Positions 3,536 through 27,493 are shown, counted from the first letter of the stretch. The stretch is 64,000 nucleotides of DNA from a bacterium (GCA_021824915.1 JAKAJP010000018.1:596-64595), one strand, 5' to 3'. The notes: generated by a model from the sequence alone, not told the origin. Translations and numbers: made by a program.

Positions 3536-3537
3536 AC

Positions 3538-9862: not shown

Positions 9863-9863
9863 A

Positions 9864-13112: not shown

Positions 13113-13119
13113 GAGAAAT

Positions 13120-13770
13120 ATGTTGTACGACATAATTAAAAGGACCATGGACATTCTTCTGTCCTTGATTTTAATAATTCTATTTTCCCCGATAATGCTT
13201 GCCGCAATAGTTATTATTGCCATTACTTCCCCCGGGCCGGTACTAGTTGAAAGGACTAATAAAACCGCACAAAGAGTAGGGAAGAAAGGAAAAATCTTTT
13301 ACCACTACAAATTTAGAAGTATGATTCCCAATGCATATCATCTACTAAAAACTGACCCCAAGTTCAAAAGACTTTATGAGGAGTATAAAAAATCGAGTTT
13401 CAAGCTTCATGCAGACCCCAGGGTGACCAAATTCGGCAAATTTATTAGAAAATATTCGATTGATGAGATGCCGCAGCTTTTTAATGTTTTGAAGGGGGAA
13501 ATGAGTTTGGTTGGTCCCCGTCCATATTTTGTTGACGAGCTTAAAGAACAACAGCAAAGATATCCGGGCACGAGTAGGTTTGTAAAAGACACATTAACGG
13601 TGAAACCGGGAATTACAGGATTTTGGCAGGTTTCAGGGCGTAGCACGGTCAATTTTGACAGAAGGATTGAAATGGATGCTTATTATGCAAAAAAGAGATC
13701 GCTAATGCTCGACTTTCTTATTATCCTCAAAACTCCGTTTGTAATGATCAGCGGCAAAGGCGCAGTCTAG
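13120..13770 (+). CDS. Polyprenyl-phosphate sugar phosphotransferase (bacterial sugar transferase family, WbaP/WecA-like priming enzyme, C-terminal catalytic domain type)
   Basis: Single N-terminal TM followed by 'DEMPQLFNVLKGEMSLVGPRP' and 'GITGFWQVSGRS', the hallmark motifs of the Bac_transf family. Confidence 0.8.
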   Translation: MLYDIIKRTMDILLSLILIILFSPIMLAAIVIIAITSPGPVLVERTNKTAQRVGKKGKIFYHYKFRSMIPNAYHLLKTDPKFKRLYEEYKKSSFKLHADPRVTKFGKFIRKYSIDEMPQLFNVLKGEMSLVGPRPYFVDELKEQQQRYPGTSRFVKDTLTVKPGITGFWQVSGRSTVNFDRRIEMDAYYAKKRSLMLDFLIILKTPFVMISGKGAV

Positions 13771-13779
13771 TATGTTATC

Positions 13780-15852
13780 ATGAATGATATGCCCGATTTG
13801 GTCGTTCCGAAAATTGATCTCGAGAATAATGCGAATACTAGCGTTGAACCGAAAACCGGGGATTCAATTTTATTACCCAATACTCCGGATCAAACCTTGG
13901 TATCAAACGATCCCGCGCCTGAGCCTACAAATGCTCCGCCCGCAAACAAAAATTTTTTAACGCTAAGAGCACCCCTGAAAAACTGGGCAAAAATTTTAAT
14001 AGGTTTTGGAATTTTTATAGTTGTTTTGGTTGTGGCCATAGCAGTTCCCGGTTTTTTTGCATATCAAAAAGCTCTGGCACTGGCGGCTGAGTCTAAAAAA
14101 CTCTCCGAAGTTACAAAATCCAAAGACATTAATCAGGTCAAAGCCGGAATAGATAAAGAAAAGAAAGCGCTAAACGATTTCAAGTCTTCATTTGCACTTT
14201 TGGGCTGGACAAAAATAATCCCATATTTTGGAGGCTACACAAGCGATGTTGATCATGCTGTTAATGCCGCATCCGCAGGTTTAGACGCAAGTCAGATTGC
14301 AATTCAATCCCTTGAGCCATATCTTGATACGCTCGGATTTTTTAGTTCCGGGGGCAGTTCACAAAAAGATGGAACAAAAACAACTCAAGAAAGAATAGAC
14401 TTTATTGTTCAGGCGATTCCGGCCCTTCTTCCTAAAATGGACGAACTTAGCGCAAAAGCAAAAATTGTAAAAACAGAAATTGATCAAATTAACCCCGATA
14501 GATATCCGACCAAGTTTAAGAATTTTCAGGTAAAAGCAAATATTAAAAATGCCCAATTTTTGGTTGATGAGGCAACAACATTTATTACAAACGGCAAGCC
14601 TGTTTTGGAAGCAGCGCCGTACCTCCTTGGTATAGATTCCCCGAGGACTTATATGGTTATTTTCCAAAACGATAAGGAACTACGTCCCACCGGCGGTTTT
14701 ATGACCGGATACGCGATTATGAAAGTTGATAAGGCAAAGTTCCAGCCGGTTGCCAGCAACGATATGTATAATTTGGATGCTCAGTACACACCTTCTATTC
14801 CGGCCCCGGACCCAATTGTTAAATATATAAGAGGTCCATACGTTCTTTCCCAAAAACTCCGTCTAAGGGATATGAACTGGTCGCCTGATTTTGCCCAGAG
14901 CATGAACACCTTTACAACCGCCGCGAGTGAGGCGGGTGTTAATAAAATTGACGGAGTTATTGGTGTTGATACCCAGCTTTTGGTTAATCTTTTAGATGTG
15001 ATTGGCCCATTAGGTGTTCCCGGATACGGAAATTTCAGTACGCAAATTGACCCTCAGTGTAACTGCGCTCAAGTTATTCATGAACTTGAAGCTTACGCCG
15101 ATATTGAAGGGCCAATTGTTTGGGATCCGAATACCGGAAAAATTGTTTATAGTCCTCCGAATGCCGACAACAGAAAAAGGATAATCGGGCCACTAATGAA
15201 TTCAATTTTGGCCAACGCAATGGGTCAGCCGAAGGAAAAGTTGCCGGCGCTTTTTACGGCAGGGTTTAAGTCCTTAATGGAAAAGCATGTTCTTTTTTAT
15301 CTGCTTGATGACAAAACTGAAAAAGCGGTTTCTGACTTTGGTTTGGGAGGAGTTATAAATCAAAACTACTCCGGCGATTATCTTCACATAAATGATGCGA
15401 ATTTGGGGGGAAGAAAATCTAACCTTTATGCAACTGAGGAGGTTATGCAGGATATAAATGTTGCAGCCGACGGAAGTGTAACCAAAACGGTGACAATTAC
15501 CTATAAAAATCCTCAAACACAGGATGGCTGGCTTAATTCGGTATTACCGGATTGGGTAAGAGTTTATGTTCCTAAAGGAAGCACATTAATTGCCGCAGAG
15601 GGCCTTGAAGCAAAGCAAGATCCATATGACGATTTGGGCCACACTGTTTTTGCAGGATATTTCCAGCTTCGTCCGGAAGGAGTTTCCAAAGTAACTCTTA
15701 AGTATAAACTTCCTTTCAAAGTATCAAGAGATTATAAAATGTTAATTCAGAAACAACCCGGAACGGACGGGCCGCTTTATACAATTAATCTTGGCAGGCA
15801 TACGGAAGAGTTCTACTTAAAGAGCGACAAAGAAGTTAGCATAGGGTTATAA
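13780..15852 (+). CDS. Large membrane-anchored extracytoplasmic protein of unknown function (possibly DUF4012-like), associated with the glycan locus
   Basis: 690 aa, with an N-terminal cytoplasmic low-complexity stretch, one TM (ILIGFGIFIVVLVVAIAV), then a long soluble region. No motif I can name with confidence. Confidence 0.4.
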   Translation: MNDMPDLVVPKIDLENNANTSVEPKTGDSILLPNTPDQTLVSNDPAPEPTNAPPANKNFLTLRAPLKNWAKILIGFGIFIVVLVVAIAVPGFFAYQKALALAAESKKLSEVTKSKDINQVKAGIDKEKKALNDFKSSFALLGWTKIIPYFGGYTSDVDHAVNAASAGLDASQIAIQSLEPYLDTLGFFSSGGSSQKDGTKTTQERIDFIVQAIPALLPKMDELSAKAKIVKTEIDQINPDRYPTKFKNFQVKANIKNAQFLVDEATTFITNGKPVLEAAPYLLGIDSPRTYMVIFQNDKELRPTGGFMTGYAIMKVDKAKFQPVASNDMYNLDAQYTPSIPAPDPIVKYIRGPYVLSQKLRLRDMNWSPDFAQSMNTFTTAASEAGVNKIDGVIGVDTQLLVNLLDVIGPLGVPGYGNFSTQIDPQCNCAQVIHELEAYADIEGPIVWDPNTGKIVYSPPNADNRKRIIGPLMNSILANAMGQPKEKLPALFTAGFKSLMEKHVLFYLLDDKTEKAVSDFGLGGVINQNYSGDYLHINDANLGGRKSNLYATEEVMQDINVAADGSVTKTVTITYKNPQTQDGWLNSVLPDWVRVYVPKGSTLIAAEGLEAKQDPYDDLGHTVFAGYFQLRPEGVSKVTLKYKLPFKVSRDYKMLIQKQPGTDGPLYTINLGRHTEEFYLKSDKEVSIGL

Positions 15853-15859
15853 TTGGCGC

Positions 15860-16405
15860 ATGCATGCGCACTCATATACTTCAGAGGGAATAATTCTTGC
15901 CAGAAAAAATTTTGGAGAAGCGGATAGAATTCTTTGGGTTTATTCAAAATCACATGGTAGAGTTGCACTAATTGCCAAAGGTATCAGGCGCCCCAAAAGC
16001 CGTAAAAGAGGACATTTGGAAATTTTTGCCAAAGTAAATTTCCAAGCTACAAAATCGCATAGCCTAGATTTAATGCTTGAGGCAGAAGTTATTGATGCCT
16101 ATCCGGAAATTAGAAAAAGCTTAAAAAAAGTTTCTCTTGCGTACTACATCTGCGAGGTAATCGGCAAAATTACACACGAACAGGAACCGAATGTTGAACT
16201 TTATGATCTGATTTTGGAAAATTTGGAAAAATTAAAATCTACAAAGAGGTTAAAAGAACTCCGGCTGGAATTTATTCATAACCTCCTAATTTTAACCGGT
16301 TATTGGCCGCATGATAAAAAACTTTCCGATCCGGATACAAAACTTGAGGAAGTCATTGAACGGCAGTTGTATAGCAGTAGGGTTGGCAAAATCATTTCTT
16401 CTTAA
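15860..16405 (+). CDS. recO: DNA repair protein RecO (short form, OB-fold N-terminal domain)
   Basis: 'GIILARKNFGEADRILWVYSKSHGRVALIAKGIRRPKSRKRG' matches the conserved RecO N-terminal region. At 181 aa it lacks the usual C-terminal Zn-finger part. Confidence 0.6.
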   Translation: MHAHSYTSEGIILARKNFGEADRILWVYSKSHGRVALIAKGIRRPKSRKRGHLEIFAKVNFQATKSHSLDLMLEAEVIDAYPEIRKSLKKVSLAYYICEVIGKITHEQEPNVELYDLILENLEKLKSTKRLKELRLEFIHNLLILTGYWPHDKKLSDPDTKLEEVIERQLYSSRVGKIISS

Positions 16406-16408
16406 ATT

Positions 16409-16954
16409 TTAATGATTGTTTTGCTTTTGGGTGAAAAGATGTGTTTCATAATTAACTAGAGTTGCCTCCTTTTTATTAAATATTTCTTTGCAAATTAATA
16501 TTGCAACCTTTGTCGCTTTGAGATAGTGATTTTCAAAAGAGACTTTTATATCTAGCTTTTCTTCGTCATACTTTTCTTCGGTAATATGAGACTTTTTAAT
16601 ACCTGAGTCTGACAATATTCTTTTTAATTCTGGTTTGCGGGTATAGAATGCATTCGTATACCACACAGGTATATTCATAATTAAAACTCCACCAAAGTTG
16701 GCAAATTGCACAAACTTTTCATCTGTAGTATCAAAATCGAAGATTACAAACGATCCGTTTGGAAGATTTTTCAGGGCATATTTCAAAAAAGAAAAACTTA
16801 ATTTAGGATTTAGATAATTTTCTTTGTGCCAAACTAGCCAAAGCTTAAATTCATAAATTTTCTGCAATGTTTTGAAAATGGGACCCCAAAAATCAAACTC
16901 AATATTGAAGCTTATTCCCAAAATATCTCTTTTTATTACAAGCGGGTTGAACAT
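16409..16954 (-). CDS. Hypothetical protein
   Basis: 181-aa ORF convergent with recO and divergent from the downstream operon. No recognisable motif. Confidence 0.4.
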   Translation of the reverse strand: MFNPLVIKRDILGISFNIEFDFWGPIFKTLQKIYEFKLWLVWHKENYLNPKLSFSFLKYALKNLPNGSFVIFDFDTTDEKFVQFANFGGVLIMNIPVWYTNAFYTRKPELKRILSDSGIKKSHITEEKYDEEKLDIKVSFENHYLKATKVAILICKEIFNKKEATLVNYETHLFTQKQNNH

Positions 16955-17055
16955 ATGCCCATAATATTCTCAAAACTTAAACTTCGCAAACGACCTTGGC
17001 TATTTTAAGAGTAAAATAGTAGTTCAGCCCGAAAAAGTTGTAAAATACAGGCAGA

Positions 17056-20000
17056 ATGTCGCTTATAGATAATAAAAACCAAACACTTCAAGATGCACTT
17101 AAAAACGCGTTGGTGACAGCTGATAGAGTTGATATTGCAGTCGGTTTCTTTTACTTCTCCGGTTTTGAAGCTTTGGCAAAAGAACTCAAAGACAAAAAAG
17201 TCCGTATATTGGTTGGCTTAGAAGTTGACCCCAAACTTATATCCGAAATCTCCCAAAAGGCGAAGGGTGGAGACGTTGATCTTTCCAAATATCAAACCAG
17301 AGACTCCATCAATTCCCGAACGGTTAAAAAATTAAACTACATAGACGCCTTTGTGGGCTTCATGAACGATAGTGATGTTTTCGATTCAAACAAAGCCAAC
17401 GAACTTTACGAGCTTTATATGCAAAAGATTAAAGATGGCTCTTTAGAAATTAGAAAGACGATAGACGATTATCATGGCAAATTTTACTTAACATTTAACA
17501 AAAAAGGGGTTGATCAAAATGGTGATTTGCCGGGTACGGCCTTTTTTGGCTCAAGTAATTTATCTTACAGAGGACTAAATGGACAAGGTGAATTGAATCG
17601 CTCAAGCCATGAGAAAAGTGAATTTACTGAATTGGTCGGTGAATTTGAAGAAATGTGGAGTGATTCAAAATCAATCTCAATAGCAGATACTAACACCCGA
17701 GACGAGTTTATTGAATCAATCAAACCCCGTGTTTGGAAATATAGCACACCGCTTCCGTACCAAATTTATATTAGAGTTTTACAGGAATTATTCCAGCAAA
17801 AGGAGATAGAGTCCTTAAAAACGCCTAGCACCATTACAAAAGGACTTTATATTGACCTTGAATACCAAGTCGATGCAATAAAAATGGTAATAGATAAACT
17901 CAATAAATACGATGGTGCAATTCTTGCGGATGTTGTAGGACTAGGTAAAAGTATCATTGCCTTAGCTGTCGCCAGAAACATGGATATTAAAACTGTCATC
18001 ATCGCTCCACCCCATCTAATGTCCCAATGGGAAGAATATAAAGAGCAATTTGGTATTAGAGGCTCAAAAGTTTATAGCTCTGGAAAAATACAAGAAGTTT
18101 ATGATAGATATCACGAATCAAACGAGCCAATGTTGTTTGTGCTCGACGAAGCTCATAGATTTAGAAATGAGGATACCAATGATTACAAGCTACTCCATCA
18201 GGTTTGTCGTAGTAACCCTGAAAATAAAATTCTTCTTCTAACAGCAACGCCGTTTAACAATGATCCAAAGGACGTATTTGCATTGATAAAACTTTTCCAA
18301 ACACCCGGGCAATCTACGATTCGCTCGGTTGACAATTTGAGTCTTCGTTATCGCGATCTTATTCAGCGATATAAAAAACTGCGAAGGGATATGACTAAAG
18401 GTGTGGATCAAGAATTAGTTGATAAGGAGGCCTCTGAAATAGCCGCCGAACAAAGAAGACTCATCGAAACAATTATTATCAGGCGATCGCGTCTCGATTT
18501 GGATTACATAACACGTTACCGGGAAGATTTACATCGCCAGAATATTTCGTTTGCTGAAATTAGAGGACCTGAACCCCTTGAATACGATCTCGGTGAATTA
18601 CTTGAACCTTATACGAAAACTTTAGACTTAATTATTAAACCAGACAACGAAGGGTTTATCGGGGCCAGATATAAGCCGACCTCTGAAGTCTACATGGATG
18701 ATCAAAATCGCAAAAAGTTTATCGATAAGTACAAAAGCGAGTTTGATGACATTGAAGATCTTCGAACAGCACAATCTAACTTAGCAAAATTCATGCGACG
18801 ACTTTTAGTTATGCGTTTTGAAAGTTCAAAAGATGCCTTTAGATCAACTCTCGATAAGATGATCGAGTCCAACAAATTAATTGAACACTGGTGGGATACT
18901 TTAGGATCTGTACCAATTATGAAAAAGGGGCAGCTACCAGACCCAGAAGATTACCAAAGTGAGGACGGCGAAGTAGATTCACTTTCAGATGAACTTGAGT
19001 TATTACGAAATAAAAAGGGATTACTTGAGATCAGCAAGGATATGCTTGATTCAAAGTTTATCGACGATGTACGACACGATACTAAACTTCTTCAAACAAT
19101 TAGGGATGACTGGTATTCAAACAAGAAATATGTGGAGCTTGATCCAAAACTAGATAATGTAATTCAAAAAATTCGTGATCTTTTGACTGAAAACCCAGAC
19201 AGAAAAATAGTTATATTTTCAGGTTACAAAGACACTGTAGATTATTTGTATAAGGAGATTTTGAAACGTGGCTTGGATAGAGTCGCAAAGTATACAGCTT
19301 CTGAAGGGACAGATGCCTATAAAAAAGTTATTCGCCAAAATTTTGATGCATCGCTTCCAGTAACTCAACAACAAAATGATTTTGATGTCTTGGTAGCAAC
19401 AGATGCTCTTAGCGAAGGTTTCAATCTACATAGGGCTGGAATTATTATCAATTACGACATCCCATATAATCCAACAAGAGTAATTCAAAGAGTTGGACGT
19501 ATTAATCGTATCAACAAAAAAGTCTTTGACTTTCTATATATTTATAACTGCTTCCCCACAGTAATCGGTGAAGAAGAGACCCGGGTAAAATTGATATCGA
19601 CCTTGAAAATGAAACTAATAAATGCAGTTGTTGGTAGTGATACAAAAACCCTTACCAAAGATGAAGAACTTGTTAGTTTCTTTAAAGATGAGTTTGATCG
19701 AGCAAGACGAGAAGATGAAAAACTTTCTTGGGATACAAAACATAGAGAGAATTACGAAAAATCTCTAAAAGACAAAGAACTTACGCAAAAGGTTTTGGAA
19801 CTTCCTAGAAGGAGCCGTATTAAAAGAAAGGGTCAGAAGAACTTGGGGACAATTGTTTTTGGTAAAAAAGGTCAAAACACAATTTTTACATACGGTTTAA
19901 TACCCGATGAAATAAAAGTTACGTCTGCAGAAGAATCGTTGCCCATCTTTGAATCAGAGCCTGACGAAATTGGTGATGTAGTGGATAAGAATTTTACCGA

Positions 20001-20340
20001 CGTATTTAACTTAGCTAAAGAAAAATTATTCGCAAAGCATGAGCTACCACAAATAAAAGGTAGAAGAGCAACGGCGATAAATTTATTGAAAGTAATTGCT
20101 GAAAAACTACCTACTGCTAGGAACTATTGTGAGGATATAATCTCCATTATTAAAACCCTAGATGATATTAGCGATGGATCTCTGAAGGATATTTCTCAGC
20201 TTGATGCGAATAAAATTGAAGATTCTTACAAAAAACTTCTGTCAATAATTCCCGAGGTATTTGTGAGAAACATACTAAACCGATCTCAACACACCGAATC
20301 TGCAGAAGAATTAATACTATTTGCCGAGCAATTAACATGA
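17056..20340 (+). CDS. PLD-family (single HKD-like motif) nuclease domain fused to an SNF2/Swi2-family SF2 helicase/translocase
   Basis: Residues ~130-170 '[14 protein letters not shown]...[10 protein letters not shown]' resemble the H-x-K...G-S-x-N motif of Nuc/BfiI-type PLD nucleases. SNF2 motif I is '[18 protein letters not shown]', motif II '[10 protein letters not shown]', motif III '[22 protein letters not shown]', and motifs V/VI '[42 protein letters not shown]'. Confidence 0.8.
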   Translation: [1094 protein letters not shown]

Positions 20341-23300
20341 TTCAACTACATAATGAATATCAACGCGACGACATTCTTAAATTTCTTGAAGAAGATTTTT
20401 TAACAGATTTCAAAAGAGACGTCAGACCTGTTAACACTAAAGGCCTATCCTCGATACAAAAAGCGAATTATTTAGGAGAAAGTAAAAATCTTGATCTTCA
20501 AGTTTTTGAATTTTTATTTGAAGGCTCGCCAAATAAACGCGTTGCTTTAACAAAAGACGCTTTTTCGGTAATGCGGTCAAGTGCAATCTTTCGAGCTTTA
20601 GCAGTTTTTCATTCTGCGGATAACAAAGATTGGCGTTTTTCATTAATGACGGCTACTCCCGAACCGACTGAAAAAGGTAAAGTAACTCTTTCTTATTCCA
20701 ACCCCAAACGGTTATCTTTTTTTCTAGGACCGAACGCCAAAATAAATACCCCAACGAAATTTTTAGTCAGCAAAGGGAAAGTTTTGGATTTTGAAGATTT
20801 GAAAAATAGATTTTCTATCGAAGTCGTTAATAAGGAATTTTACAAGGAAATATCCCAGGCCTTTACAAAACTTGTTTCAGGTTTGCTCAAGCTCCCCTCA
20901 ATTGAAGGTAAAAGTCAAACCAATCTTGAATTTGCGGTTCGTTTGATTGGTCGCATAATTTTCTGTTGGTTTTTGAGAGAAAAGAAAAGTCATGCTGGTC
21001 TTGCTTTAATGCCAAAGGAATTGTTATCTCTTGAGGCCATTAAAAAAACAGAAAACTATTATCACAAAATTCTTGAACCGATTTTTTTTGAAGTTTTGAA
21101 TATGCAAGTTAAATCAAGAAAGAATGATTTTGCAGAAGAACCATTTTCTCATGTCCCTTACTTAAATGGAGGATTATTTTCTCCCCAAGACGATGACTAT
21201 TACAAACGCACCAATGGCGATATTCAATCACAATTTCAAAACACACTAATAATTCCTGATAGTTGGTTCAAAGATTTTTTTGAAATTCTTGAAACTTACA
21301 ACTTTACGATCGACGAAAATACTAGCTACGACGAAGAGCTTTCTATTGATCCCGAAATGCTCGGCCGGATATTCGAAAATCTTCTTGCTGAAATTAATCC
21401 AGAGACAGGTGAATCTGCAAGAAAAAGTACGGGAAGCTATTACACACCAAGAGTGATTGTAAATTATATGGTTGACGAAAGCCTGCTTCTTTATCTGAAA
21501 GTGAAAACTAATATAAGTGAAGAAAAATTACGGGCAATTATAAGCTACGATCTGGGTGATGACGTAGAAAATCCGTTAACGGCAGGAGAAAAAGAAAAAA
21601 TTATAGATGCCTTAGAAAAAGTTAAAATTTTAGATCCCGCTTGCGGATCTGGTGCTTTTCCGATAGGTGCTTTACAGAAAATTGTGTTTATCCTCCAACA
21701 AACCGATCCAGATGGACAATTGTGGTTTAAGAAACAAATCTTGTCCACTCCTGCAGAAGTAAGGAAACTTATAGAACATGAGTTTGACCATAAGAATTTT
21801 GATTACATCAGAAAACTTGGAGTCATTAGGCAAAGCATATTTGGTGTTGACATCCAACCCGTTGCAACAGAAATATCTAGACTTCGGTGCTTTTTAACTT
21901 TAATTGTTGAAGAAACAGTGGACGACAGTGAGAAGAATCGAGGCATTGAACCCCTTCCAAATTTGGACTTTAAATTTGTTACTGCCAATAGCTTGATTGG
22001 TTTTCCCGAAGAAAAATCCGGTATTGAACAGCAAAATCTACTAGGTTCTGATGAAGGGGAAATGATTCTCCAACTCAGAAATATAATGGATGACTATTTC
22101 AACTCACACAATCACGAAAGGGAGGAATGCAAAAAAAGATTTTATGTAATAAGAGATGAGTTAAGAAAATACACGGTGAACAATAACTCGTGGAACGAAC
22201 GCACGAAATATCTTACTACTTGGGACCCATTCGGCCATGAACCTTCTTCATGGTTTGATCCTGAATGGATGTTCGGGATTAAAAACGGATTCAGCATAAT
22301 AATTGCAAACCCTCCTTATGTGGGTGAAAAAGGTAATGAAGACATATTCCATGAAGTGGCTAAAACTGAATTTGGCAAAAAATTCTACACGCGATGGATG
22401 GACTATTTCTATTTCTTTTTTCATAAGGGTATCGAGATGGGTGATAAAACCGCGGTAATCTCTTTTATAAGTACAAATTATTTTTTAACCGCTACCGGGG
22501 CAATAAAATTACGAAGAGATATTAGGGATCGGACATGTATAAAATATCTGATCAATTTTAATGAGCTAAAAGTATTCGAAGCGGCCCAAGGGCAACATAA
22601 TATAATTACAATTCTTGTAAAAGGACGAAATGAAAATGAAATAAGCCTAAATTGTGAAACACAACGAAAAGGTACAGCTTCTATCAACGAAATTCAAATG
22701 ATCCTAAACGGGAAAGACGACAAAACCTCGTATTACCAAATTCCTCAAAAATACTTGTTTGAGGGACAAGACTGTCAAATAAGGTTAAATGGTTCAACTG
22801 ACACAAATAGTGCATTGCAGAACATTTTACAAAAAATTAAACGGCAGTATTATTTTCTTGATGACGCGTGCGTAATTAGTCCAGGAGTTTTTTCCGGTGC
22901 CGATAGAGTTTCAAGCCAACATATTAAAAAATTTGGAAATTCTTTTGTCAAAAAGGGTGACGGTATTTACGTTTTAACGAAAGAGGAATTAGAAGACTTG
23001 AATCTGAGTGATGAAGATTACCAAAAGTACATAAAGAAGTTTTACAAAAATTCAGATGTTAAGAAATACTATGCCAACACCAAAAATAAATACTACCTTA
23101 TTTACATACGAGACGAGGGAAAACCAATCAAGCTATCAAAAAATCTTGAACAACATTTCTCTAAATTTGAGACGATATTAACTGGTGTTAAACGAAATTT
23201 TCTTAAAAACGCTGTTGCAAGAGAGATCGTTAAAAAATGGCTAGATAATGGAAATTATTTTGTAATGTTCCTACCAAAAAAAGAAAGTATATTTACCAAA

Positions 23301-23750
23301 CCCAAAATAATAACTCCTTATAGAAGTAGTTCTAACAATTTTGCATATGTTGAAGGCGATTGGTTTGCAAGCCAAGATGTTTATTTTATAAACCAGAAAG
23401 ACTTCTATACAGATCTAAAATATATTTTGGCTCTTCTAAATTCAAAGTTATATCTCTTGTGGATGTTTAATAAGGGTAAAAGGAAAGGCGAAACGCTTGA
23501 ATTTTACCAAAAGCCTCTTTCAGAAATACCTATTAAAAAACTTACATTGAGTGAGCAATCCCCATTTATCAAAATTGTAGAAAAAATACTATTTCTCACG
23601 AGTTCTGGCGATTATTTGACCGACTTTGAAAAACAAAAGAAAGTTATAGATTATGAAAATCAGATTGACCAATTAGTTTATAAACTCTATGACTTATCAT
23701 CAGAAGAGGTAGAGATTGTAGAAAATACCACAAAACAGTCCAATGAGTGA
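20337..23750 (+). CDS. Large gamma-class N6-adenine DNA methyltransferase (Eco57I/Type IIG-IIL / BREX PglX / DISARM DrmMI-like), with an uncharacterised ~330-aa N-terminal domain and a ~400-aa C-terminal TRD-like region
   Basis: AdoMet motif I 'ILDPACGSGAFPIGALQKI' and catalytic motif IV 'IIIANPPYVG' in the order typical of gamma-class MTases. ATGA overlap with the upstream helicase gene. Confidence 0.8.
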   Translation: MIQLHNEYQRDDILKFLEEDFLTDFKRDVRPVNTKGLSSIQKANYLGESKNLDLQVFEFLFEGSPNKRVALTKDAFSVMRSSAIFRALAVFHSADNKDWRFSLMTATPEPTEKGKVTLSYSNPKRLSFFLGPNAKINTPTKFLVSKGKVLDFEDLKNRFSIEVVNKEFYKEISQAFTKLVSGLLKLPSIEGKSQTNLEFAVRLIGRIIFCWFLREKKSHAGLALMPKELLSLEAIKKTENYYHKILEPIFFEVLNMQVKSRKNDFAEEPFSHVPYLNGGLFSPQDDDYYKRTNGDIQSQFQNTLIIPDSWFKDFFEILETYNFTIDENTSYDEELSIDPEMLGRIFENLLAEINPETGESARKSTGSYYTPRVIVNYMVDESLLLYLKVKTNISEEKLRAIISYDLGDDVENPLTAGEKEKIIDALEKVKILDPACGSGAFPIGALQKIVFILQQTDPDGQLWFKKQILSTPAEVRKLIEHEFDHKNFDYIRKLGVIRQSIFGVDIQPVATEISRLRCFLTLIVEETVDDSEKNRGIEPLPNLDFKFVTANSLIGFPEEKSGIEQQNLLGSDEGEMILQLRNIMDDYFNSHNHEREECKKRFYVIRDELRKYTVNNNSWNERTKYLTTWDPFGHEPSSWFDPEWMFGIKNGFSIIIANPPYVGEKGNEDIFHEVAKTEFGKKFYTRWMDYFYFFFHKGIEMGDKTAVISFISTNYFLTATGAIKLRRDIRDRTCIKYLINFNELKVFEAAQGQHNIITILVKGRNENEISLNCETQRKGTASINEIQMILNGKDDKTSYYQIPQKYLFEGQDCQIRLNGSTDTNSALQNILQKIKRQYYFLDDACVISPGVFSGADRVSSQHIKKFGNSFVKKGDGIYVLTKEELEDLNLSDEDYQKYIKKFYKNSDVKKYYANTKNKYYLIYIRDEGKPIKLSKNLEQHFSKFETILTGVKRNFLKNAVAREIVKKWLDNGNYFVMFLPKKESIFTKPKIITPYRSSSNNFAYVEGDWFASQDVYFINQKDFYTDLKYILALLNSKLYLLWMFNKGKRKGETLEFYQKPLSEIPIKKLTLSEQSPFIKIVEKILFLTSSGDYLTDFEKQKKVIDYENQIDQLVYKLYDLSSEEVEIVENTTKQSNE

Positions 23751-25467
23751 TCCTATCCTACATAAAAAACAAAAAGACGAAAGAACAGCACAAACAGAGG
23801 AAATTGTTAATTCCACTGAAAAGAAACGACTGATAGTGTCTGGTCCCGGAACGGGTAAAACTTTTATATTTGAGGCGGTAATTAAGAAGAACCCTACCGG
23901 AAAAAAATTAGTACTAACGTTTATCAGAAGATTGGTATCAGATATTGATCAAAAAATACAATTAAAAAATACATGCAAGACTTTTCATGAATTTGCAAAG
24001 GGATTGTTGCATAACCAAAAAGGTTCTTTTGATTTACAACCGTATTTATCAGACATCATTAAAAGAGATGCGGAGTTGTTAGGGTTAGATCTACAGGAGT
24101 TTGATACAAAATTTCAAGAACTTGATGAATATGGGTCAGAAATACCTTTTTATATTAAACGAGGTGATTACTATAATACCGTTTCATTCAATGATTCTGT
24201 ATATCGAATTTTTAAAATGGCAACAAAAGATGAAGCCGTTTTACCAGAATTTACCCAAATCATAGTTGATGAATACCAGGACTTTAACAAACTTGAGATA
24301 GAACTCATCAAACTTTTAGAAAAGCGTGGACCAATACTAATAGCTGGAGACGATGATCAAGCCCTGTATGATGGCCGTTCGGCTTCCTCAAAATATATTA
24401 AAGAGTTGTATCGATCGGGAAGGTTCAAGGTTTTTAAGCCTAAATATTGTAGTCGTTGTACGTTAGTGATAGTTAATGCCATGAATGCTTTCATCAAAAA
24501 TGTTCAGAGGTTTGGTTTTTTCAAAGATAGGATTGAAAAAAATTATGAATGTTACCTTCCAGATAAGGAGAACGATAGTGTTAAACATCAGAAAGTCGAT
24601 TTTGTTGAATGTAGCACGATAAAAACAGTGGCAAAATATGTGCGAAGAATGGCAGAAAAAATAGATGTCCAAGATATCCAAGATTCTCATAAGGGCGGGT
24701 ATCCGACCATTTTAATAATTGGTCCATCATATTATCTCAGAGTAGTCTATGAAGAACTCCAGAAGGAGTTTGCTAACATAATATTTACTCCAAGTGAAGA
24801 GTTTACTTATTCTTTAAGTGATGCTTACAGGTTACTATTGGCTGATGAATTCTCCAACATGGGTTGGAGAATATTGGCAGAATTTTCTATCGGTGAAAAA
24901 ACACTTGCGGATATAATTGCTGGGTCAGAAAACGCAACTCCAATTATCGATTTATTACCGAAGGAAATAATATCAACACACCAAAAGATCTTAGAGATAA
25001 TTAAAAGTATCACAAACAAGGATACTTTTAAAAATGAATTTGTTAATGAATTGAAAAAAACATTACCAAATAATTACACGGAAATAATTGAAAATTTTAG
25101 ATACAAAGATGAAGAACCAAAAGACGAGACTCAAATTGACAAAACAAAACCGTCGATTTTGCTTACCTCGTATAAGGGAGCTAAAGGATTGTCTGGTGGG
25201 CACGTTTTCCTTCTCGGGGCACATAACGGCTCACTTCCCAAAAATAAAGATATTATAAGTGATGTTGAGATTTCACAATTTTTAGTTGCAATGACCCGGA
25301 CTAGAAAAAAATTATTCCTGGTAAGTAACAGATGGTATATAAACCCCATGACACCAGATCACAAATTTATTGACCCTAATGAAAGAAGTATATTTATTGA
25401 TTGGATACCAAATGAATTTTTAAATAATGTAGGTTATTTAAAAAGCGATGATGTAAATAAGTTATAG
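23743..25467 (+). CDS. UvrD/PcrA/Rep-family SF1 DNA helicase (short, 574 aa)
   Basis: Walker A 'LIVSGPGTGKTF', motif II 'IIVDEYQDFN', motif III 'IAGDDDQALYDGRSAS', motif V 'LLTSYKGAKGLSGGHVFLLG' and motif VI 'VAMTRTRKKLFL'. 8-nt overlap (ATGAGTGA) with the MTase gene. Confidence 0.8.
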   Translation: MSDPILHKKQKDERTAQTEEIVNSTEKKRLIVSGPGTGKTFIFEAVIKKNPTGKKLVLTFIRRLVSDIDQKIQLKNTCKTFHEFAKGLLHNQKGSFDLQPYLSDIIKRDAELLGLDLQEFDTKFQELDEYGSEIPFYIKRGDYYNTVSFNDSVYRIFKMATKDEAVLPEFTQIIVDEYQDFNKLEIELIKLLEKRGPILIAGDDDQALYDGRSASSKYIKELYRSGRFKVFKPKYCSRCTLVIVNAMNAFIKNVQRFGFFKDRIEKNYECYLPDKENDSVKHQKVDFVECSTIKTVAKYVRRMAEKIDVQDIQDSHKGGYPTILIIGPSYYLRVVYEELQKEFANIIFTPSEEFTYSLSDAYRLLLADEFSNMGWRILAEFSIGEKTLADIIAGSENATPIIDLLPKEIISTHQKILEIIKSITNKDTFKNEFVNELKKTLPNNYTEIIENFRYKDEEPKDETQIDKTKPSILLTSYKGAKGLSGGHVFLLGAHNGSLPKNKDIISDVEISQFLVAMTRTRKKLFLVSNRWYINPMTPDHKFIDPNERSIFIDWIPNEFLNNVGYLKSDDVNKL

Positions 25468-25469
25468 AA

Positions 25470-26216
25470 ATGAATAAATACCACCAACGAGCCAGAAATT
25501 TGTATGATCCTAAATCGGATAAGCCGTTTGCTATCAGCAGAAGCAAGATCGATTTATTTTTAGAATGCCCTAGGTGTTTCTATTTGGATTGTCGGCTTGG
25601 TTTGGGGAGAACGAGTATCCCCAGTTTTTCATTAAACTCTGCTGTTGATGCCCTCCTTAAAAAGGAATTTGATCTACTCCGTAAAGAAAAGAAACCTCAC
25701 GAACTTATGACGTTGTACAACATTAAAGCAGTTCCTTTTGACCACCCAGAAATTGACAAATGGCGGGAAAATTTTGTCGGTAAAAGATATTTGCATGAAG
25801 GAACAAACCTAGAAATCTTCGGGGCAGTTGATGATCTTTGGATTAATTCCCAAAAAGAACTCTTAGTTGTTGATTATAAATCTACAAGTACAAGTAAAGA
25901 AATTTCGTTGGAAGATGAGTATAAGCAAGGATACAAAAAGCAAATGGAAATTTACCAATGGATTTTCAGAAAAAGCGGATTCAAGGTAAATGATACTGGT
26001 TATTTTGTTTTTGCCAATGCAAGTAAAGAAAAACCAAAATTTGATAAGAAGTTAGTTTTTAATCTCTCAATAATCTCCTATAAAGGTGATGATTCTTGGG
26101 TAGAACCAACAATTTTTGAAATCAAGAAATGTCTTGGTTCGGACGAAATCCCTGATTCAGATCCCGACTGTGAGTTTTGTGAATATAGAAAATTAATAAA
26201 ATCTTTTGAAAAGTAA
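25470..26216 (+). CDS. Cas4/RecB/AddB-like PD-(D/E)xK nuclease with putative Fe-S Cys cluster
   Basis: Motif II 'GAVDDLW', motif III 'LLVVDYKSTS' (the hhDYKT signature), and a Q-h-x-x-Y motif 'EIYQWIF'. Cysteines near the N-terminus (CPRCFYLDC) and the C-terminus (KKC...DPDCEFCEY) are arranged as in Cas4/AddB iron-sulfur nucleases. Confidence 0.65.
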   Translation: MNKYHQRARNLYDPKSDKPFAISRSKIDLFLECPRCFYLDCRLGLGRTSIPSFSLNSAVDALLKKEFDLLRKEKKPHELMTLYNIKAVPFDHPEIDKWRENFVGKRYLHEGTNLEIFGAVDDLWINSQKELLVVDYKSTSTSKEISLEDEYKQGYKKQMEIYQWIFRKSGFKVNDTGYFVFANASKEKPKFDKKLVFNLSIISYKGDDSWVEPTIFEIKKCLGSDEIPDSDPDCEFCEYRKLIKSFEK

Positions 26217-27493
26217 TGGACATTTTTGGAAGATTGGCGACAAATATCAGACTTAAATTTAAAAATTTTGTTTTCGGAATTAAAAAATATTTCAAAAAAC
26301 TTCTTCTTCCAATTTATCTTTTCCCAATCAAGCTGATTACCTATTCCGCTTATTATCTTCTAAAGTTTTTGATTAAACTTCTGATTGCCTTTATAGGCTT
26401 AATAATTGACTGTATTGTTTTTCCGTTCAAATCACTTAAAAATTTTCTTAAATCGATCGTTTTGACAATAGTTGTGATTTATTTATGCCTAACTCTCGTT
26501 GTTATAGCCGACTATCTGAAAAGACAATACGGAAGTTTTAGGAAAACATTTTGCGCATTAGGGTACCCAATAAATCAGAAGTTGCAAAAATCGGTTGTTA
26601 GGATAATCGGGGGATATTCTGAAGGTTCCGGATTTTTTGTCGAAGATGACAAAGTTTTAACAAATTTTCATGTAATCGCGGACGAGCCAAGCCCCAAGAT
26701 AGTATTTCCGGACGGAAGCTTTACGACGCCTGTAAAAATATTGGGAAATAAAGATGCTGACTTGGCGTTGTTATTTGTTAAAGAAAAAAGATCCGACTTG
26801 GTTTTTAAACTTCCCGACGAAATTAAACTCTACGAAGATGAACCTTTGGTTTCAGGAGGGTATGCCTTGGGTACGAATTTAAGTGGAGAAACCACTGTCG
26901 TAAAAGGGAATTTTGTAAATTTCAGAAAGCAGAAGACTTCCCCTGTGGGTTATATCCAGACCAACCTCAGTTTAGTTCGCGGGATGAGTGGAGGACCGCT
27001 TGTTGATCAATGCGGACAAGTCGTGGGCATTAATACCCAAAGCCTGGCCGGGCTTTCCTTGTTTATCACCGGTGTTGATGCCAAAAACCTGATTCCCAGT
27101 TTTACCGACCAAAATATAACTAAAATTAATGTTGATCCTTCAAAATCTCCCGAAGATGCCGTCTATGCTTTCTACACGTATCTCAAAGCCAGAAGAATGC
27201 GGGATGGTTTTAATTTATTGAGTGCGGAGTACCTTAAAAAGACTAACTATCAGGAGTGGACGAACCGGTTTACCGACATTTTGGATGTTAATGTTTTCAA
27301 GACGGAAAGATATCAAAATTCGGGAGATGTGGCGTTTGTGAAATTTTCTACTAAAAATTGGGTGGATGGGGAAGCGGAAATGCATTTTTATGAGGGTACG
27401 TGGCAGACGGTAAATGAGGATGGAGTTTATAAAATGTTCAGGGCTGATATCAAAGAAGTCGAAAATCCGGATTGGAATTGGTTCTATGAATGA
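26216..27493 (+). CDS. Membrane-anchored trypsin-like (S1/chymotrypsin-fold) serine protease with an extra ~130-aa C-terminal domain
   Basis: Two or three N-terminal TM helices. Catalytic triad His 'LTNFHVIAD', Asp 'DADLALL' and Ser 'GMSGGPLVD'. The start overlaps the nuclease stop by 1 nt (TAATG). Confidence 0.75.
   Translation: MDIFGRLATNIRLKFKNFVFGIKKYFKKLLLPIYLFPIKLITYSAYYLLKFLIKLLIAFIGLIIDCIVFPFKSLKNFLKSIVLTIVVIYLCLTLVVIADYLKRQYGSFRKTFCALGYPINQKLQKSVVRIIGGYSEGSGFFVEDDKVLTNFHVIADEPSPKIVFPDGSFTTPVKILGNKDADLALLFVKEKRSDLVFKLPDEIKLYEDEPLVSGGYALGTNLSGETTVVKGNFVNFRKQKTSPVGYIQTNLSLVRGMSGGPLVDQCGQVVGINTQSLAGLSLFITGVDAKNLIPSFTDQNITKINVDPSKSPEDAVYAFYTYLKARRMRDGFNLLSAEYLKKTNYQEWTNRFTDILDVNVFKTERYQNSGDVAFVKFSTKNWVDGEAEMHFYEGTWQTVNEDGVYKMFRADIKEVENPDWNWFYE

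What the first reader, a model, noticed from the sequence alone, without database searches (positions are those of the whole stretch)
17056..27493. Translationally coupled 5-gene operon: PLD-SNF2 helicase / giant gamma-class adenine MTase / UvrD-like helicase / Cas4-like Fe-S nuclease / membrane trypsin-like protease. Candidate undescribed defence system
The five genes are chained by start/stop overlaps (ATGA at 20337, ATGAGTGA at 23743, a 2-nt gap at 25468-25469, TAATG at 26216). That argues for a single co-translated module. The first two genes have the order and domain content of class 1 DISARM drmD (SNF2) and drmMI (large N6A MTase), with the PLD nuclease (DrmC-like) fused onto the SNF2 protein. 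The DISARM core DrmA/DrmB (DUF1998) is absent. In its place are a UvrD-family SF1 helicase, a Cas4/RecB-type PD-(D/E)xK nuclease and a membrane-anchored serine protease. I do not recognise this combination as any named system (DISARM, BREX, Druantia, Gabija, Hachiman, Type I-IV RM). The operon sits between housekeeping genes (recO upstream, a metal ABC importer downstream), as a defence island would. An alternative reading is that the MTase plus PLD-SNF2 form an ATP-dependent Type IIG/ISP-like restriction system, and the UvrD plus nuclease are a minimal split RecB/AddAB-like repair module co-transcribed with it.
Basis: partly seen in the sequence, partly recalled or inferred. Interest (0 to 1): 0.9.

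Follow-up and report, generated by a model that had tools for sequence, protein, structure and literature searches.

The report
Three-gene restriction island, two resident neighbours
The five tightly packed genes are not one defence system: a horizontally acquired three-gene restriction-modification-like module (nuclease-motor, DNA methylase, UvrD-type helicase) sits directly upstream of a nuclease and a protease that related Patescibacteria carry with or without it.

Summary
The five-gene system is not supported. g4 (Cas4-like nuclease) and g5 (membrane trypsin-like protease) belong to abundant Patescibacteria families whose listed hits are 65-81% identical. They occur without g1-g3: among housekeeping genes, behind a GmrSD gene, or split by a Mokosh-like insert. 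Tight junctions are the norm in this window (39 of 48 same-strand pairs are within 15 nt), so they do not define a unit.

The mobile part is g1-g3. g1 (PLD-SNF2) and g2 (Type IIG/PglX-like N6A methylase) recur as a pair in Parabacteroides and Rhodococcus plasmids without g3. I read them as an ATP-dependent restriction-modification-like pair.

g3 belongs to a conserved UvrD-like helicase family of about 572 aa. It sits inside or just after methylation-based defence operons of several kinds: Type I, Type II, ISP-like, DISARM-like and SNF2+MTase. A methylase lies within 5 kb in 14 of 29 family loci, against 2 of 97 generic UvrD loci. None of the libraries searched names this family. The closest precedent is ArmD of ARMADA II.

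Verdict: a new variant of a known kind, of moderate interest, mainly for the restriction-associated helicase.

The parts
16409..16954 (-). Orphan 181-aa ORF divergent from g1. It may be island cargo; its function is unknown and its membership is uncertain.
   Evidence: It has the lowest GC of the region (0.304). It has no hit in Pfam, NCBIfam, PHROGs or PADLOC. No homologue was found in the six related loci searched (L004, L091, L093, L255, L258, L259).
16955..17055 (.). 101-nt intergenic gap upstream of g1, between the divergent orf181 and g1. It is the likely promoter region of the island and the largest gap in the block.
   Evidence: The promoter scan gave nothing above the shuffled background.
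17056..20340 (+). g1: N-terminal HKD/PLD nuclease fused to an SNF2 (SF2) translocase, 1094 aa. Proposed restriction subunit.
   Evidence: Pfam PLDc_2, SNF2-rel_dom, Helicase_C. PADLOC 'HKD+Snf2' 1e-40 and DrmD 5e-31. phrog_26785 1.6e-98 over most of the length (residues 2-874). Motifs are intact. 84% identical in L259. 41% identical over the full length in a Parabacteroides plasmid, again next to a large MTase.
20337..23750 (+). g2: 1137-aa gamma-class N6-adenine MTase with a TaqI_C/MmeI-type TRD and a conserved N-terminal domain of about 330 aa of unknown function. Proposed modification and specificity subunit.
   Evidence: Pfam Eco57I, TaqI_C, MmeI_Mtase. PADLOC REase_MTase_IIG 2e-76. NPPY at 658. 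Residues 1-771 are 68% identical in L259, and no match was reported beyond residue 771, the TRD region. 34% identical to the Parabacteroides partner MTase from residue 8. No MmeI_N hit. The N-terminal profile has no PDB relative.
23743..25467 (+). g3: UvrD/Rep/PcrA-like SF1 helicase, 574 aa. Member of a conserved family that sits next to methylation-based defence operons.
   Evidence: 42-69% identity across phyla. (invariant Walker A, DExQD, GDDDQA). AF2 pLDDT 88 and Foldseek top hit UvrD-DNA 2is4, TMq 0.72. Contexts. Enrichment of neighbouring MTases: 14/29 vs 2/97.
25470..26216 (+). g4: Cas4/RecB-type PD-(D/E)xK nuclease with Cys clusters. A resident Patescibacteria gene, NOT part of the mobile module.
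   Evidence: 7999 of 8000 scored candidates hit and the top 120 are 65-81% identical; the few named hits are Patescibacteria. Found among housekeeping genes without g1-g3. Its identity matrix does not track island presence.
26216..27493 (+). g5: membrane-anchored trypsin-like serine protease with no PDZ and a conserved C-terminal alpha+beta domain. Resident Patescibacteria gene and frequent neighbour of g4; NOT part of the mobile module.
   Evidence: The listed homologues nearly all align over 94-100% of g5 at 65-73% identity; the named ones are Woesebacteria, WWE3 or Patescibacteria, plus one labelled Ignavibacteria. The g4-g5 pair occurs without the island in L258 and L266/267. In L259 the pair is separated by a Mokosh-like insert.
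21988..23136 (.). Perfect 20-nt inverted repeat inside g2 (arms 21988-22007 and 23117-23136).
   Evidence: Inverting the segment in silico introduces 20 stop codons. The repeat is absent from the L259 and L004 homologues.

Best explanation
The block is composite.

(1) g1-g3, possibly with the orphan orf181, form a horizontally acquired defence island. It sits directly upstream of g4 in a Patescibacteria (Microgenomates/Woesebacteria-like) chromosome.

(2) Within the island, g2 methylates adenine in a motif read by its own TRD. This marks self DNA and supplies site recognition. g1 is the ATP-driven dsDNA translocase whose N-terminal single-HKD nuclease, presumably acting as a dimer, cuts DNA that lacks the mark. 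Together they work as a two-gene ATP-dependent restriction-modification-like pair.

(3) g3 is a real UvrD-type 3'-5' helicase from a family recruited into many kinds of methylation-based restriction operons. I infer that it acts on the nicks or ends the restriction step makes. It would unwind or strip invader DNA, or signal through ATP turnover. In that role it reinforces restriction, as ArmD does in ARMADA II and GajB in Gabija.

(4) g4 (Fe-S Cas4/RecB-like nuclease) and g5 (membrane serine protease) are a resident, lineage-conserved gene pair. The DNA just upstream of g4, and in one genome between g4 and g5, holds different defence genes in different genomes. They may be co-transcribed with the island by read-through, but they are not components of it.

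Shown here: domain content and intact motifs; co-occurrence patterns; conservation of the g1+g2 pair across phyla; the association of the g3 family with methylases; residency of g4/g5.

Inferred: methylation-dependent cleavage by g1; any physical or functional coupling of g3 to g1/g2; the transcript structure.
For: Residency of g4/g5:
- g4 hits 7999 of 8000 scored candidates. The top 120 are 65-81% identical and the few named hits are Patescibacteria.
- The listed g5 homologues nearly all align over 94-100% of g5 at 65-73% identity. The named ones are Woesebacteria, WWE3 or Patescibacteria, plus one labelled Ignavibacteria.
- g4 stands alone between housekeeping genes in L255 and next to xseA/xseB in L264.
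- g4-g5 occur with a 4-nt overlap and no defence gene in L266/267.
- GmrSD lies directly upstream of g4-g5 in L258.
- A Mokosh-like helicase plus an AlbA_2 protein lie between g4 and g5 in L259.
- The window's g4 is 74-75% identical to the island-free L258/L266 copies, but only 68% to the island-bearing L093/L259 copies.
- g4 GC roughly follows the GC of each locus.

Island:
- GC3 is 0.28-0.31 for g1-g3, against 0.32-0.41 for the flanking genes (recO 0.32, the rest 0.36-0.41).
- L259 is a mosaic: g1 84%, g2 68% (no match reported beyond residue 771), g3 69%.
- L093 keeps g3/g4/g5 at 66-68% identity, but its SNF2 and MTase are non-orthologous.
- L004 has PLD-SNF2 + MTase + g3, followed by an Mrr-like gene and no g4/g5.

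g1+g2 as a pair:
- Parabacteroides plasmid: g1 41% over the full length; g2 34% including the N-terminal domain.
- Rhodococcus plasmid: PLD-SNF2 plus an MmeI-like MTase that lacks MmeI_N.
- 77 PLSDB records carry g1 relatives; the g3 search found no PLSDB match at E<=1e-20.

g3 family:
- Invariant ATPase motifs and a UvrD-like fold.
- It lies between hsdS and hsdR (L008, L010) and between hsdM and hsdS (L020).
- It lies after AlwI REase + MTase (L106) and after an ISP-like 1643-aa MTase (L022).
- It lies after a DUF1998/MZB protein + SNF2 + MTase block (L011).
- A methylase lies within 5 kb in 14/29 family loci against 2/97 generic UvrD loci (Fisher p=5e-9).

Precedent: ARMADA II ends with an essential UvrD/GajB-like helicase after an SNF2 helicase and an MTase (PMC12458937, PMC13463889).
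Against: - In three of the five contexts known for close g3 relatives (64-69% identical: window, L093, L259), g3 lies directly upstream of g4. In L093, g3, g4 and g5 show similar divergence (66-68%). A lineage-specific functional link between g3 and g4 therefore cannot be excluded.
- g4's GC (0.345) looks like the island's rather than the flanks'. By composition alone the boundary could fall between g4 and g5.
- No terminator-like site separates g3 from g4, so co-transcription is likely.
- Nothing tested here shows methylation, cleavage or phage resistance.
- About half of the g3-family loci have no methylase nearby. g3 may therefore act on its own.
- The N-terminal 330 aa of g2 are unexplained and could carry an activity I cannot see.
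- The g4 context sample is small (7 genomes).
Confidence: 0.68

Rival explanations
1. First reader's model. All five genes form one co-translated defence system. In it, a UvrD helicase, a Cas4-like nuclease and a membrane protease replace DrmA/DrmB of DISARM.
For: The junctions are overlapping or near-overlapping. The same five-gene order recurs in L093, and in L259 with an insert. g1-g4 share low GC.
Against: g4 and g5 are abundant Patescibacteria families found without g1-g3. g1-g3-type blocks occur without g4/g5. g4 phylogeny does not follow island presence. Tight junctions are the norm across the window.
Confidence: 0.06
2. In this Patescibacteria lineage, g3 and g4 cooperate as a split AddAB/AdnAB-like helicase-nuclease. 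This pair degrades DNA that the g1/g2 restriction step has cut. So four genes are functionally linked, even though g4 is also a core gene. g5 might be a fifth.
For: g3 is directly upstream of g4 in the window, L093 and L259, separated by gaps of 2 to 26 nt. g4 has the RecB/AddB-type nuclease motifs and Cys clusters. By Foldseek, g3 also resembles the AddA, RecB and AdnB motor subunits.
Against: Six of the seven g4 contexts examined were reached through g3 or g4 searches; only the three found through g3 relatives have a g3 upstream, and none of the four genomes reached through g4 itself does. g3-family members in other phyla partner with RM genes and have no such nuclease nearby. The closest g4 relatives of the window copy come from g3-free loci.
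Confidence: 0.12
3. g3 is a self-contained single-gene defence or DNA-surveillance helicase. It shares hotspots and transcripts with restriction systems but has no mechanistic link to g1/g2.
For: 15 of 29 family loci have no detectable methylase within 5 kb. Some neighbours are other defence-type genes (AIPR, KAP NTPase, DUF3644, DUF3800) or unknowns. g1+g2 pairs exist without g3.
Against: g3 often sits inside the RM operon, with start/stop overlaps to hsdM, hsdS or hsdR, in Bacteroidota and Woesebacteria. The enrichment for neighbouring MTases is 44-fold over generic UvrD loci. ArmD shows that a terminal UvrD-like gene can be essential to an SNF2+MTase system. No effector domain is fused to g3.
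Confidence: 0.2
4. The block is a remnant of a phage or other mobile element. Its SNF2, MTase, UvrD and nuclease genes serve the element's own replication, recombination or anti-restriction, rather than host defence.
For: L091 and L093 carry the SNF2+MTase+UvrD block next to a terminase-like gene and a ParB-N6_N4 MTase. g1 matches phrog_26785 over most of its length.
Against: No g3-family member was found in INPHARED phages or in IMG/VR. The window has no integrase, terminase, tRNA or att-like repeats near the block. A large TRD-bearing MTase paired with a nuclease-motor is the signature of restriction, and the pair occurs on plasmids of many phyla.
Confidence: 0.04

Closest known systems
Class 1 DISARM (DrmD SNF2 helicase, DrmMI N6A methylase, DrmA, DrmB/DUF1998, DrmC PLD)
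   Same: It has an SNF2 helicase followed by a large Eco57I/PglX-type adenine methylase, plus a PLD nuclease activity. PADLOC and NCBIfam DrmD models match g1 partially. One g3-family locus (L011) follows a DISARM-like block: a partial upstream ORF (cut by the contig end) with a DUF1998/MZB domain, an SNF2 helicase and an MTase.
   Different: There is no DrmA or DrmB anywhere in the flanks. The PLD is fused to the SNF2 protein rather than separate. g1 scores 132 bits against the 610-bit cut-off of DISARM_DrmD. The DrmMI match is weak (8e-12). A UvrD-like gene is added.
BREX-related Type-2 BR / Hma systems (DUF499 ATPase + N6-MTase + HKD-Snf2 helicase + DUF3780; Rakesh & Krishnan, NAR 2026, PMC12839542)
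   Same: The helicase has the same architecture, an N-terminal HKD endonuclease on a Swi2/Snf2 core, and it is paired with an N6-MTase. That paper proposes an RM-like logic with the HKD-helicase as effector.
   Different: No DUF499 ATPase or DUF3780 gene is present. The PADLOC HmaA match covers only the C-terminal helicase lobe. g3 is a UvrD-type SF1 helicase, and the word 'UvrD' does not occur in that paper's text.
ARMADA type II (ArmA RapA/SNF2-like, ArmB methylase, ArmC YprA-nuclease, ArmD RelE-GajB-like UvrD helicase; PMC12458937, PMC13463889)
   Same: The gene order is SNF2 helicase, then large adenine MTase, ending in a UvrD-like SF1 helicase. In ARMADA II the UvrD-like gene is required for defence.
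   Different: There is no YprA/DUF1998 helicase-nuclease. The nuclease is a PLD on the SNF2 protein. g3 has no RelE-like N-terminal domain. It matches E. coli EDL933 ArmD only at the helicase motifs (BLASTP 6e-06 over 72 aa; hhalign 186 columns).
Type IIG / Type ISP restriction-modification enzymes (MmeI, Eco57I, LlaGI families)
   Same: g2 has the MmeI/Eco57I-type methylase core and a TRD. PADLOC REase_MTase_IIG scores 2e-76. The proposed ATP-dependent translocating restriction resembles Type ISP.
   Different: No nuclease domain is recognisable in g2: there is no MmeI_N hit, and a lysine present at one candidate position in the L004 and Parabacteroides homologues is replaced in the window and L259 copies. 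The motor and nuclease are on a separate polypeptide (g1), not fused to the methylase.
Gabija GajB and housekeeping UvrD/Rep/PcrA
   Same: g3 has the SF1A helicase motifs. Its model superposes on DNA-bound UvrD across most of its length (TMq 0.72). The best PADLOC hits are GajB models (2e-19).
   Different: No GajA/OLD nuclease partner is present. Similarity to the GajB structure 8sm3 is low (TMq 0.31). g3 scores far below the uvrD/rep/pcrA equivalog cut-offs. Its genomic context is restriction operons, not repair loci.

Membership tests
Class 1 DISARM | DrmA helicase and DrmB (DUF1998/MZB) core genes are present | tested here: not met
   No such genes lie within about 10 kb on either side. 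The flanks are glycosyltransferases, DUF4012, recO, a Zn/Mn ABC transporter and others.
Class 1 DISARM | DrmD SNF2 helicase at equivalog level | tested here: not met
   NCBIfam DISARM_DrmD scores 132 bits against a 610-bit cut-off. The PADLOC DrmD match is 4.6e-31 and partial.
Class 1 DISARM | DrmMI N6-adenine methylase and PLD nuclease (DrmC) | tested here: inconclusive
   A large N6A MTase is present, but the DrmMI models match only weakly (7.6e-12). The PLD is present as a fusion on g1, not as a separate DrmC.
BREX-related Type-2 BR / Hma | DUF499 AAA+ ATPase (HmaC/BrxC-like) | tested here: not met
   None of the five proteins or the flanking genes matches.
BREX-related Type-2 BR / Hma | Stand-alone DUF3780 gene in the locus (98% of taxa according to PMC12839542) | tested here: not met
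   No such Pfam hit in the locus.
BREX-related Type-2 BR / Hma | HKD endonuclease fused N-terminally to a Swi2/Snf2 helicase, next to an N6-MTase | tested here: met
   g1 has PLDc_2 at residues 23-201 and an SNF2 core from about residue 260. g2 is adjacent.
ARMADA type II | YprA-family (DUF1998) helicase-nuclease ArmC | tested here: not met
   Absent from the locus.
ARMADA type II | ArmD: GajB-like helicase with an N-terminal RelE-like domain | tested here: not met
   g3 begins with the helicase core (Walker A at residue 34). Its similarity to EDL933 ArmD is limited to the helicase motifs.
Type IIG restriction-modification | Endonuclease, methylase and TRD on one polypeptide | tested here: inconclusive
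   The methylase and TRD are met. There is no MmeI_N or other nuclease hit in residues 1-330. The profile has no PDB relative. No invariant ExK-type motif appears in the four-sequence alignment.
Gabija | GajA OLD-family ATPase/TOPRIM nuclease next to the UvrD-like GajB | tested here: not met
   No GajA-type protein is in the locus.
AddAB/RecBCD-type helicase-nuclease | Obligate pairing of the SF1 motor with the RecB-family nuclease | tested here: not met
   g4 occurs without g3 in 4 of the 7 genomes examined. g3 occurs without g4 in most of its contexts. The addA_Gpos model scores 24.8 bits against a 708-bit cut-off.
CRISPR-associated Cas4 | Equivalog-level match and a cas/CRISPR context | tested here: not met
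   TIGR00372 scores 28 bits against a 65-bit cut-off. No cas genes lie in the flanks. The whole window was not scanned for CRISPR arrays.
HtrA/DegP proteases | Trypsin domain followed by PDZ domain(s) | tested here: not met
   Only Trypsin_2 matches. degP_htrA_DO scores 69 bits against a 416-bit cut-off. In the model the C-terminal 110 aa are helices plus a four-stranded sheet, at low confidence.

The most novel reading that the evidence does not exclude
The g3 family is a portable, previously unnamed helicase co-factor of restriction. It would be a UvrD-type motor that plugs into mechanistically different methylation-based systems (Type I, Type II, ISP-like, DISARM-like, PLD-SNF2+MTase). It would be needed for, or would markedly boost, destruction of restricted DNA. 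That would make 'restriction + UvrD' a general two-layer design, of which ARMADA II's ArmD is one instance. In Patescibacteria it may additionally hand substrates to the resident Cas4-like nuclease g4.
Probability: 0.27. Interest if true: 0.65.

Novelty: new variant of a known kind. Interest (0 to 1): 0.45.

Why it matters
Three points follow if this reading is right.

First, it is a caution for defence-system discovery in streamlined genomes such as the CPR/Patescibacteria. There, start/stop overlaps and same-strand packing are universal, so they cannot define a system. Conserved resident genes can look like components.

Second, it marks the g4-g5 locus as a place where defence genes vary in Woesebacteria-like genomes. 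Four different contents were seen: SNF2+MTase+UvrD, GmrSD, a Mokosh-like pair, or nothing. That makes it a useful anchor for mining CPR immunity.

Third, and most interesting, it points to a well-conserved UvrD-like helicase family (42-69% identity across phyla). The family is strongly enriched inside or beside restriction-modification operons of several types, and it is unnamed in PADLOC v2, NCBIfam r20 and Pfam. With ArmD of ARMADA II as precedent, the question becomes testable: why would restriction systems recruit an SF1 helicase?

Tried and rejected
They returned mostly housekeeping UvrD loci. Only about 40 true family loci were usable; the rest served as the control set.
- Viral-contig scans for g3, g4 and g5 found no family members.
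- tblastn of g3 against INPHARED phages gave one weak generic hit, and against PLSDB plasmids gave none.
- I looked for att-like direct repeats, an integrase or a tRNA bounding the island. None was found.
- Promoter and terminator scans were no better than shuffled sequence.
- I looked for shared flanking genes between the window and L255/L258/L259/L093 to pin the insertion point. No synteny exists beyond g4/g5; only an SNase gene recurs near g4 in L255 and L258.
Its sequence profile has no PDB relative.
- The g5 model reached only pLDDT 68, so I did not fold-search it.
- I considered Type-2 BR/Hma, DISARM, ARMADA II, Gabija, Type IIG, AddAB, Cas4 and HtrA membership. Each fails at least one defining feature (see the membership table).
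- I considered that orf181 might be a regulator of the island. It has no hit in any library.
- Literature searches for a UvrD-like gene embedded in RM operons found only ARMADA II and Gabija.

Full report
OBSERVATION. The five ORFs lie exactly where stated. The junction strings are ATGA, ATGAGTGA, TAG-AA-ATG and TAATG. Pfam confirms every domain call:
- g1: PLDc_2 + SNF2-rel_dom + Helicase_C
- g2: Eco57I/MmeI_Mtase/N6_Mtase + TaqI_C/MmeI_TRD
- g3: UvrD-helicase/AAA_19/UvrD_C
- g4: PDDEXK_1
- g5: Trypsin_2, without PDZ

All catalytic motifs are intact. GC falls from about 0.41 to 0.33-0.37 across orf181 and g1-g4.

The inference from the junctions is weak. With longest-ORF calls, 39 of 48 same-strand neighbour pairs in the window overlap or lie within 15 nt (median 1 nt), and about 98.6% of the window falls in called ORFs. 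The same spacing joins unrelated genes: DUF4012 to recO is 7 nt and g5 to znuC is 11 nt. Promoter-like and terminator-like sites are no more frequent than in shuffled sequence.

NAMED SYSTEMS. PADLOC v2 gives these best hits:
- g1: 'HKD+Snf2' (1e-40) and DrmD (5e-31)
- g2: REase_MTase_IIG (2e-76)
- g3: GajB (2e-19)
- g4: Cas4 (2e-08)
- g5: protease domains of RT-protease and Lamassu-type models

No NCBIfam model reaches its cut-off. No library names the combination.

SYNTENY, STARTING FROM g3. g3 belongs to a well-conserved family of about 572 aa, with 42-69% identity across Nitrospirota, Bacteroidota, Omnitrophota, Acidobacteriota and uncultured lineages. Its ATPase and helicase motifs are invariant. 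The contexts found were:
- L004 (g3 64%): PLD-SNF2 (29% to g1), MTase (33% to g2), g3, then an Mrr-like gene. No g4 or g5.
- L091 (67%): SNF2, a split MTase, g3, then unknown genes.
- L093 (67%): a non-orthologous SNF2 and an ISP-type MTase, then g3, g4 (68%) and g5 (66%), next to a terminase-like gene and a ParB-MTase.
- L259 (69%): g1 at 84%; g2 at 68% over residues 1-771, with no match reported beyond that (the TRD region); g3; g4 (68%); a Mokosh-like helicase plus an AlbA_2 protein; then g5 (61%).
- Bacteroidota (L008, L010, L098): the family member sits inside Type I operons, hsdM-hsdS-g3-hsdR. In L008 its stop overlaps the hsdR start.
- A Woesebacteria genome (L020): hsdR-hsdM-g3-hsdS.
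- L106: after AlwI endonuclease plus MTase.
- L022: after a 1643-aa ISP-like MTase.
- L011: after a partial upstream ORF with a DUF1998/MZB domain, an SNF2 helicase and a 1576-aa MTase.

For a control I used the generic UvrD loci returned by the same scans. A methylase-like gene lies within 5 kb in 14 of 29 family loci, against 2 of 97 generic loci (odds ratio 44, Fisher p=5e-9). Hits at 90% identity or more, which include each locus's own methylase, were not counted. The family gave no match in PLSDB. In INPHARED the g3 query found only one weak partial match to a generic DNA helicase, and in IMG/VR only partial, generic UvrD-type matches.

The AF2 model (pLDDT 88) superposes on DNA-bound UvrD (2is4, TMq 0.72), Rep and PcrA. 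It superposes poorly on GajB (TMq 0.31). g3 is therefore a real UvrD-type helicase.

SYNTENY, STARTING FROM g4 AND g5. This changed the picture. g4 hits 7999 of 8000 scored candidates. The top 120 clusters are 65-81% identical, and the few named hits are 'PD-(D/E)XK nuclease family protein [Patescibacteria group bacterium]'. For g5, the listed homologues nearly all align over 94-100% of its length at 65-73% identity. The named ones are Woesebacteria, WWE3 or Patescibacteria, plus one labelled Ignavibacteria. The contexts were:
- L255 (691-kb genome): g4 alone, with uvrC and secG upstream and bipA downstream.
- L264: g4 followed by xseA/xseB, with der, ispH and groES/EL further along.
- L266/267: pyrG, then g4-g5 with a 4-nt overlap, then a NUDIX gene. 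No defence genes.
- L258: GmrSD (Type IV restriction), then g4-g5.

The window's g4 is 74-75% identical to the island-free L258 and L266 copies. It is only 68% identical to the island-bearing L093 and L259 copies, which are themselves 66% identical to each other. g4 GC roughly follows the GC of each locus.

So g4, often with g5, is a resident, vertically inherited gene pair. The DNA just upstream of g4, and in one genome between g4 and g5, is occupied by different defence genes in different genomes. That is what a defence hotspot looks like.

THE g1+g2 PAIR. g1 has near-full-length relatives in 77 PLSDB records from many phyla, 11 of them covering at least 80% of g1, and it matches phrog_26785.
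- On a Parabacteroides distasonis plasmid, a 1082-aa PLD-SNF2 (41% identical) is followed by a 1133-aa N6 MTase. That MTase aligns with g2 from residue 8 at 34% identity, so it shares the unexplained N-terminal domain. No UvrD gene follows.
- On a 17.7-kb Rhodococcus plasmid, the pair is PLD-SNF2 plus an MmeI-like MTase that has the MmeI helical, MTase, TRD and C domains but no MmeI_N nuclease.
- Thermus, Allomeiothermus and Thermococcus plasmids also place a DNA MTase gene one to four genes away from the homologue.
- Lactococcus and Erysipelothrix place it before DUF4391 and a Type III-like mod/res pair.

The pair therefore looks like a self-sufficient ATP-dependent restriction-modification-like unit. 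g2 supplies the methylase and sequence specificity. g1 supplies the motor and the HKD nuclease. g2's N-terminal 330 aa are conserved but have no recognisable nuclease motif and no PDB relative.

COMPARISON WITH KNOWN SYSTEMS.
- Class 1 DISARM shares the SNF2 + MTase + PLD content, but DrmA and DrmB are absent here.
- Type-2 BREX-related/Hma systems (PMC12839542) share the HKD-Snf2 + MTase arrangement, but they require a DUF499 ATPase and DUF3780, which are absent.
- ARMADA type II (PMC12458937, PMC13463889) has SNF2, MTase and a YprA-nuclease, and ends with an essential UvrD/GajB-like helicase. This is the best precedent for g3's position. However, the YprA protein is absent here, and g3 resembles E. 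coli EDL933 ArmD only at the helicase motifs.

g1-g3 is therefore best filed as a new variant within the SNF2+MTase family of RM-like defences. It is not a member of any named system.

MECHANISM.
Shown: domain content and intact motifs; conservation of the pair and of the family; residency of g4/g5.
Inferred: g2 methylates self DNA and recognises unmodified sites. g1 translocates and cleaves through a dimeric HKD site. g3 loads on the resulting nicks or 3' tails and unwinds or clears invader DNA, reinforcing restriction.

I give 0.68 to the composite reading as a whole. Residency of g4/g5 stands at about 0.85, the RM-like role of g1+g2 at about 0.75, and an accessory role for g3 at about 0.5.

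Points against: g3 abuts g4 in three of the five contexts known for its close relatives, so lineage-specific cooperation cannot be excluded. g4's GC in the window is island-like. Co-transcription into g4-g5 is likely. Half of the g3-family loci lack a nearby methylase. No function was tested experimentally.

Noticed in passing
window 21988-22007 and 23117-23136 (inside g2): A perfect 20-nt inverted repeat, 1109 nt apart, lies within the methylase gene. By my own rough estimate a chance match is very unlikely (about 1e-4 expected in 11.8 kb). Inverting the segment in silico introduces 20 stop codons, so any recombination here would switch g2 off. The repeat is absent from the L259 and L004 homologues.
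   Followed up: partly
window 16409-16954 (-): A 181-aa orphan ORF divergent from g1 has the lowest GC of the region (0.304). It has no hit in Pfam, NCBIfam, PHROGs or PADLOC and no homologue in the six related loci searched. It may be island cargo or a regulator.
   Followed up: partly
L259 9642-13249: A Mokosh-like SF1 helicase (PADLOC MkoC 2.5e-64) and a Schlafen/AlbA_2 protein are inserted between the g4 and g5 homologues. This is a second insertion point at the same locus.
   Followed up: partly
L258 5577-10030: An 800-aa GmrSD_N (Type IV restriction) gene occupies the position directly upstream of g4-g5. In the window, g1-g3 sit at that position.
   Followed up: partly
L093 1-3062 and L091 1-2562: The SNF2+MTase+UvrD blocks of these two contigs lie next to a terminase-like gene, a small ORF and a ParB_N-N6_N4 methylase. 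This suggests carriage on a phage-like element, yet the g3 family was not found in IMG/VR or INPHARED.
   Followed up: no
L174 (Erysipelothrix 'phage' phi1605) 3194-12209; L273 (Lactococcus plasmid) 7258-17690: PLD-SNF2 homologues of g1 also occur in a different fixed arrangement: PLD-SNF2, a small DUF4391-type protein, a Type III-like methylase, and a res-like DEAD helicase. This may be the 'SMRD' cluster mentioned in bioRxiv 10.1101/2024.12.27.630466.
   Followed up: no
L022 2365-7296: The 1643-aa ISP-like methylase upstream of a g3-family helicase carries an IS200-like Y1_Tnp match at residues 751-797 and three Type_ISP_C stretches. It may be a fusion or a disrupted gene.
   Followed up: no
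L004 13219-14355, L093 13766-15421, L091 14584-15183: An uncharacterised protein family recurs downstream of the g3 helicase in three loci (37-47% identity). It has no Pfam hit (tested for the L004 and L093 copies) and no PADLOC hit (tested for those two copies). It may be another cargo gene of these islands.
   Followed up: no
window 26216-27493 (g5) and alignment A3: The g5 family has a strongly conserved C-terminal domain of about 110 aa (many invariant residues, for example W348, W382, W396, W422). The model shows it as helices plus a four-stranded sheet in place of a PDZ domain. The N-terminus forms two long hydrophobic helices, so which side of the membrane the protease faces is unresolved.
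   Followed up: partly
window 15860-16405: RecO is only 181 aa here, although it matches both RecO_N and RecO_C. The NCBIfam RecO profile is 239 positions long and the match covers positions 3-144.
   Followed up: no
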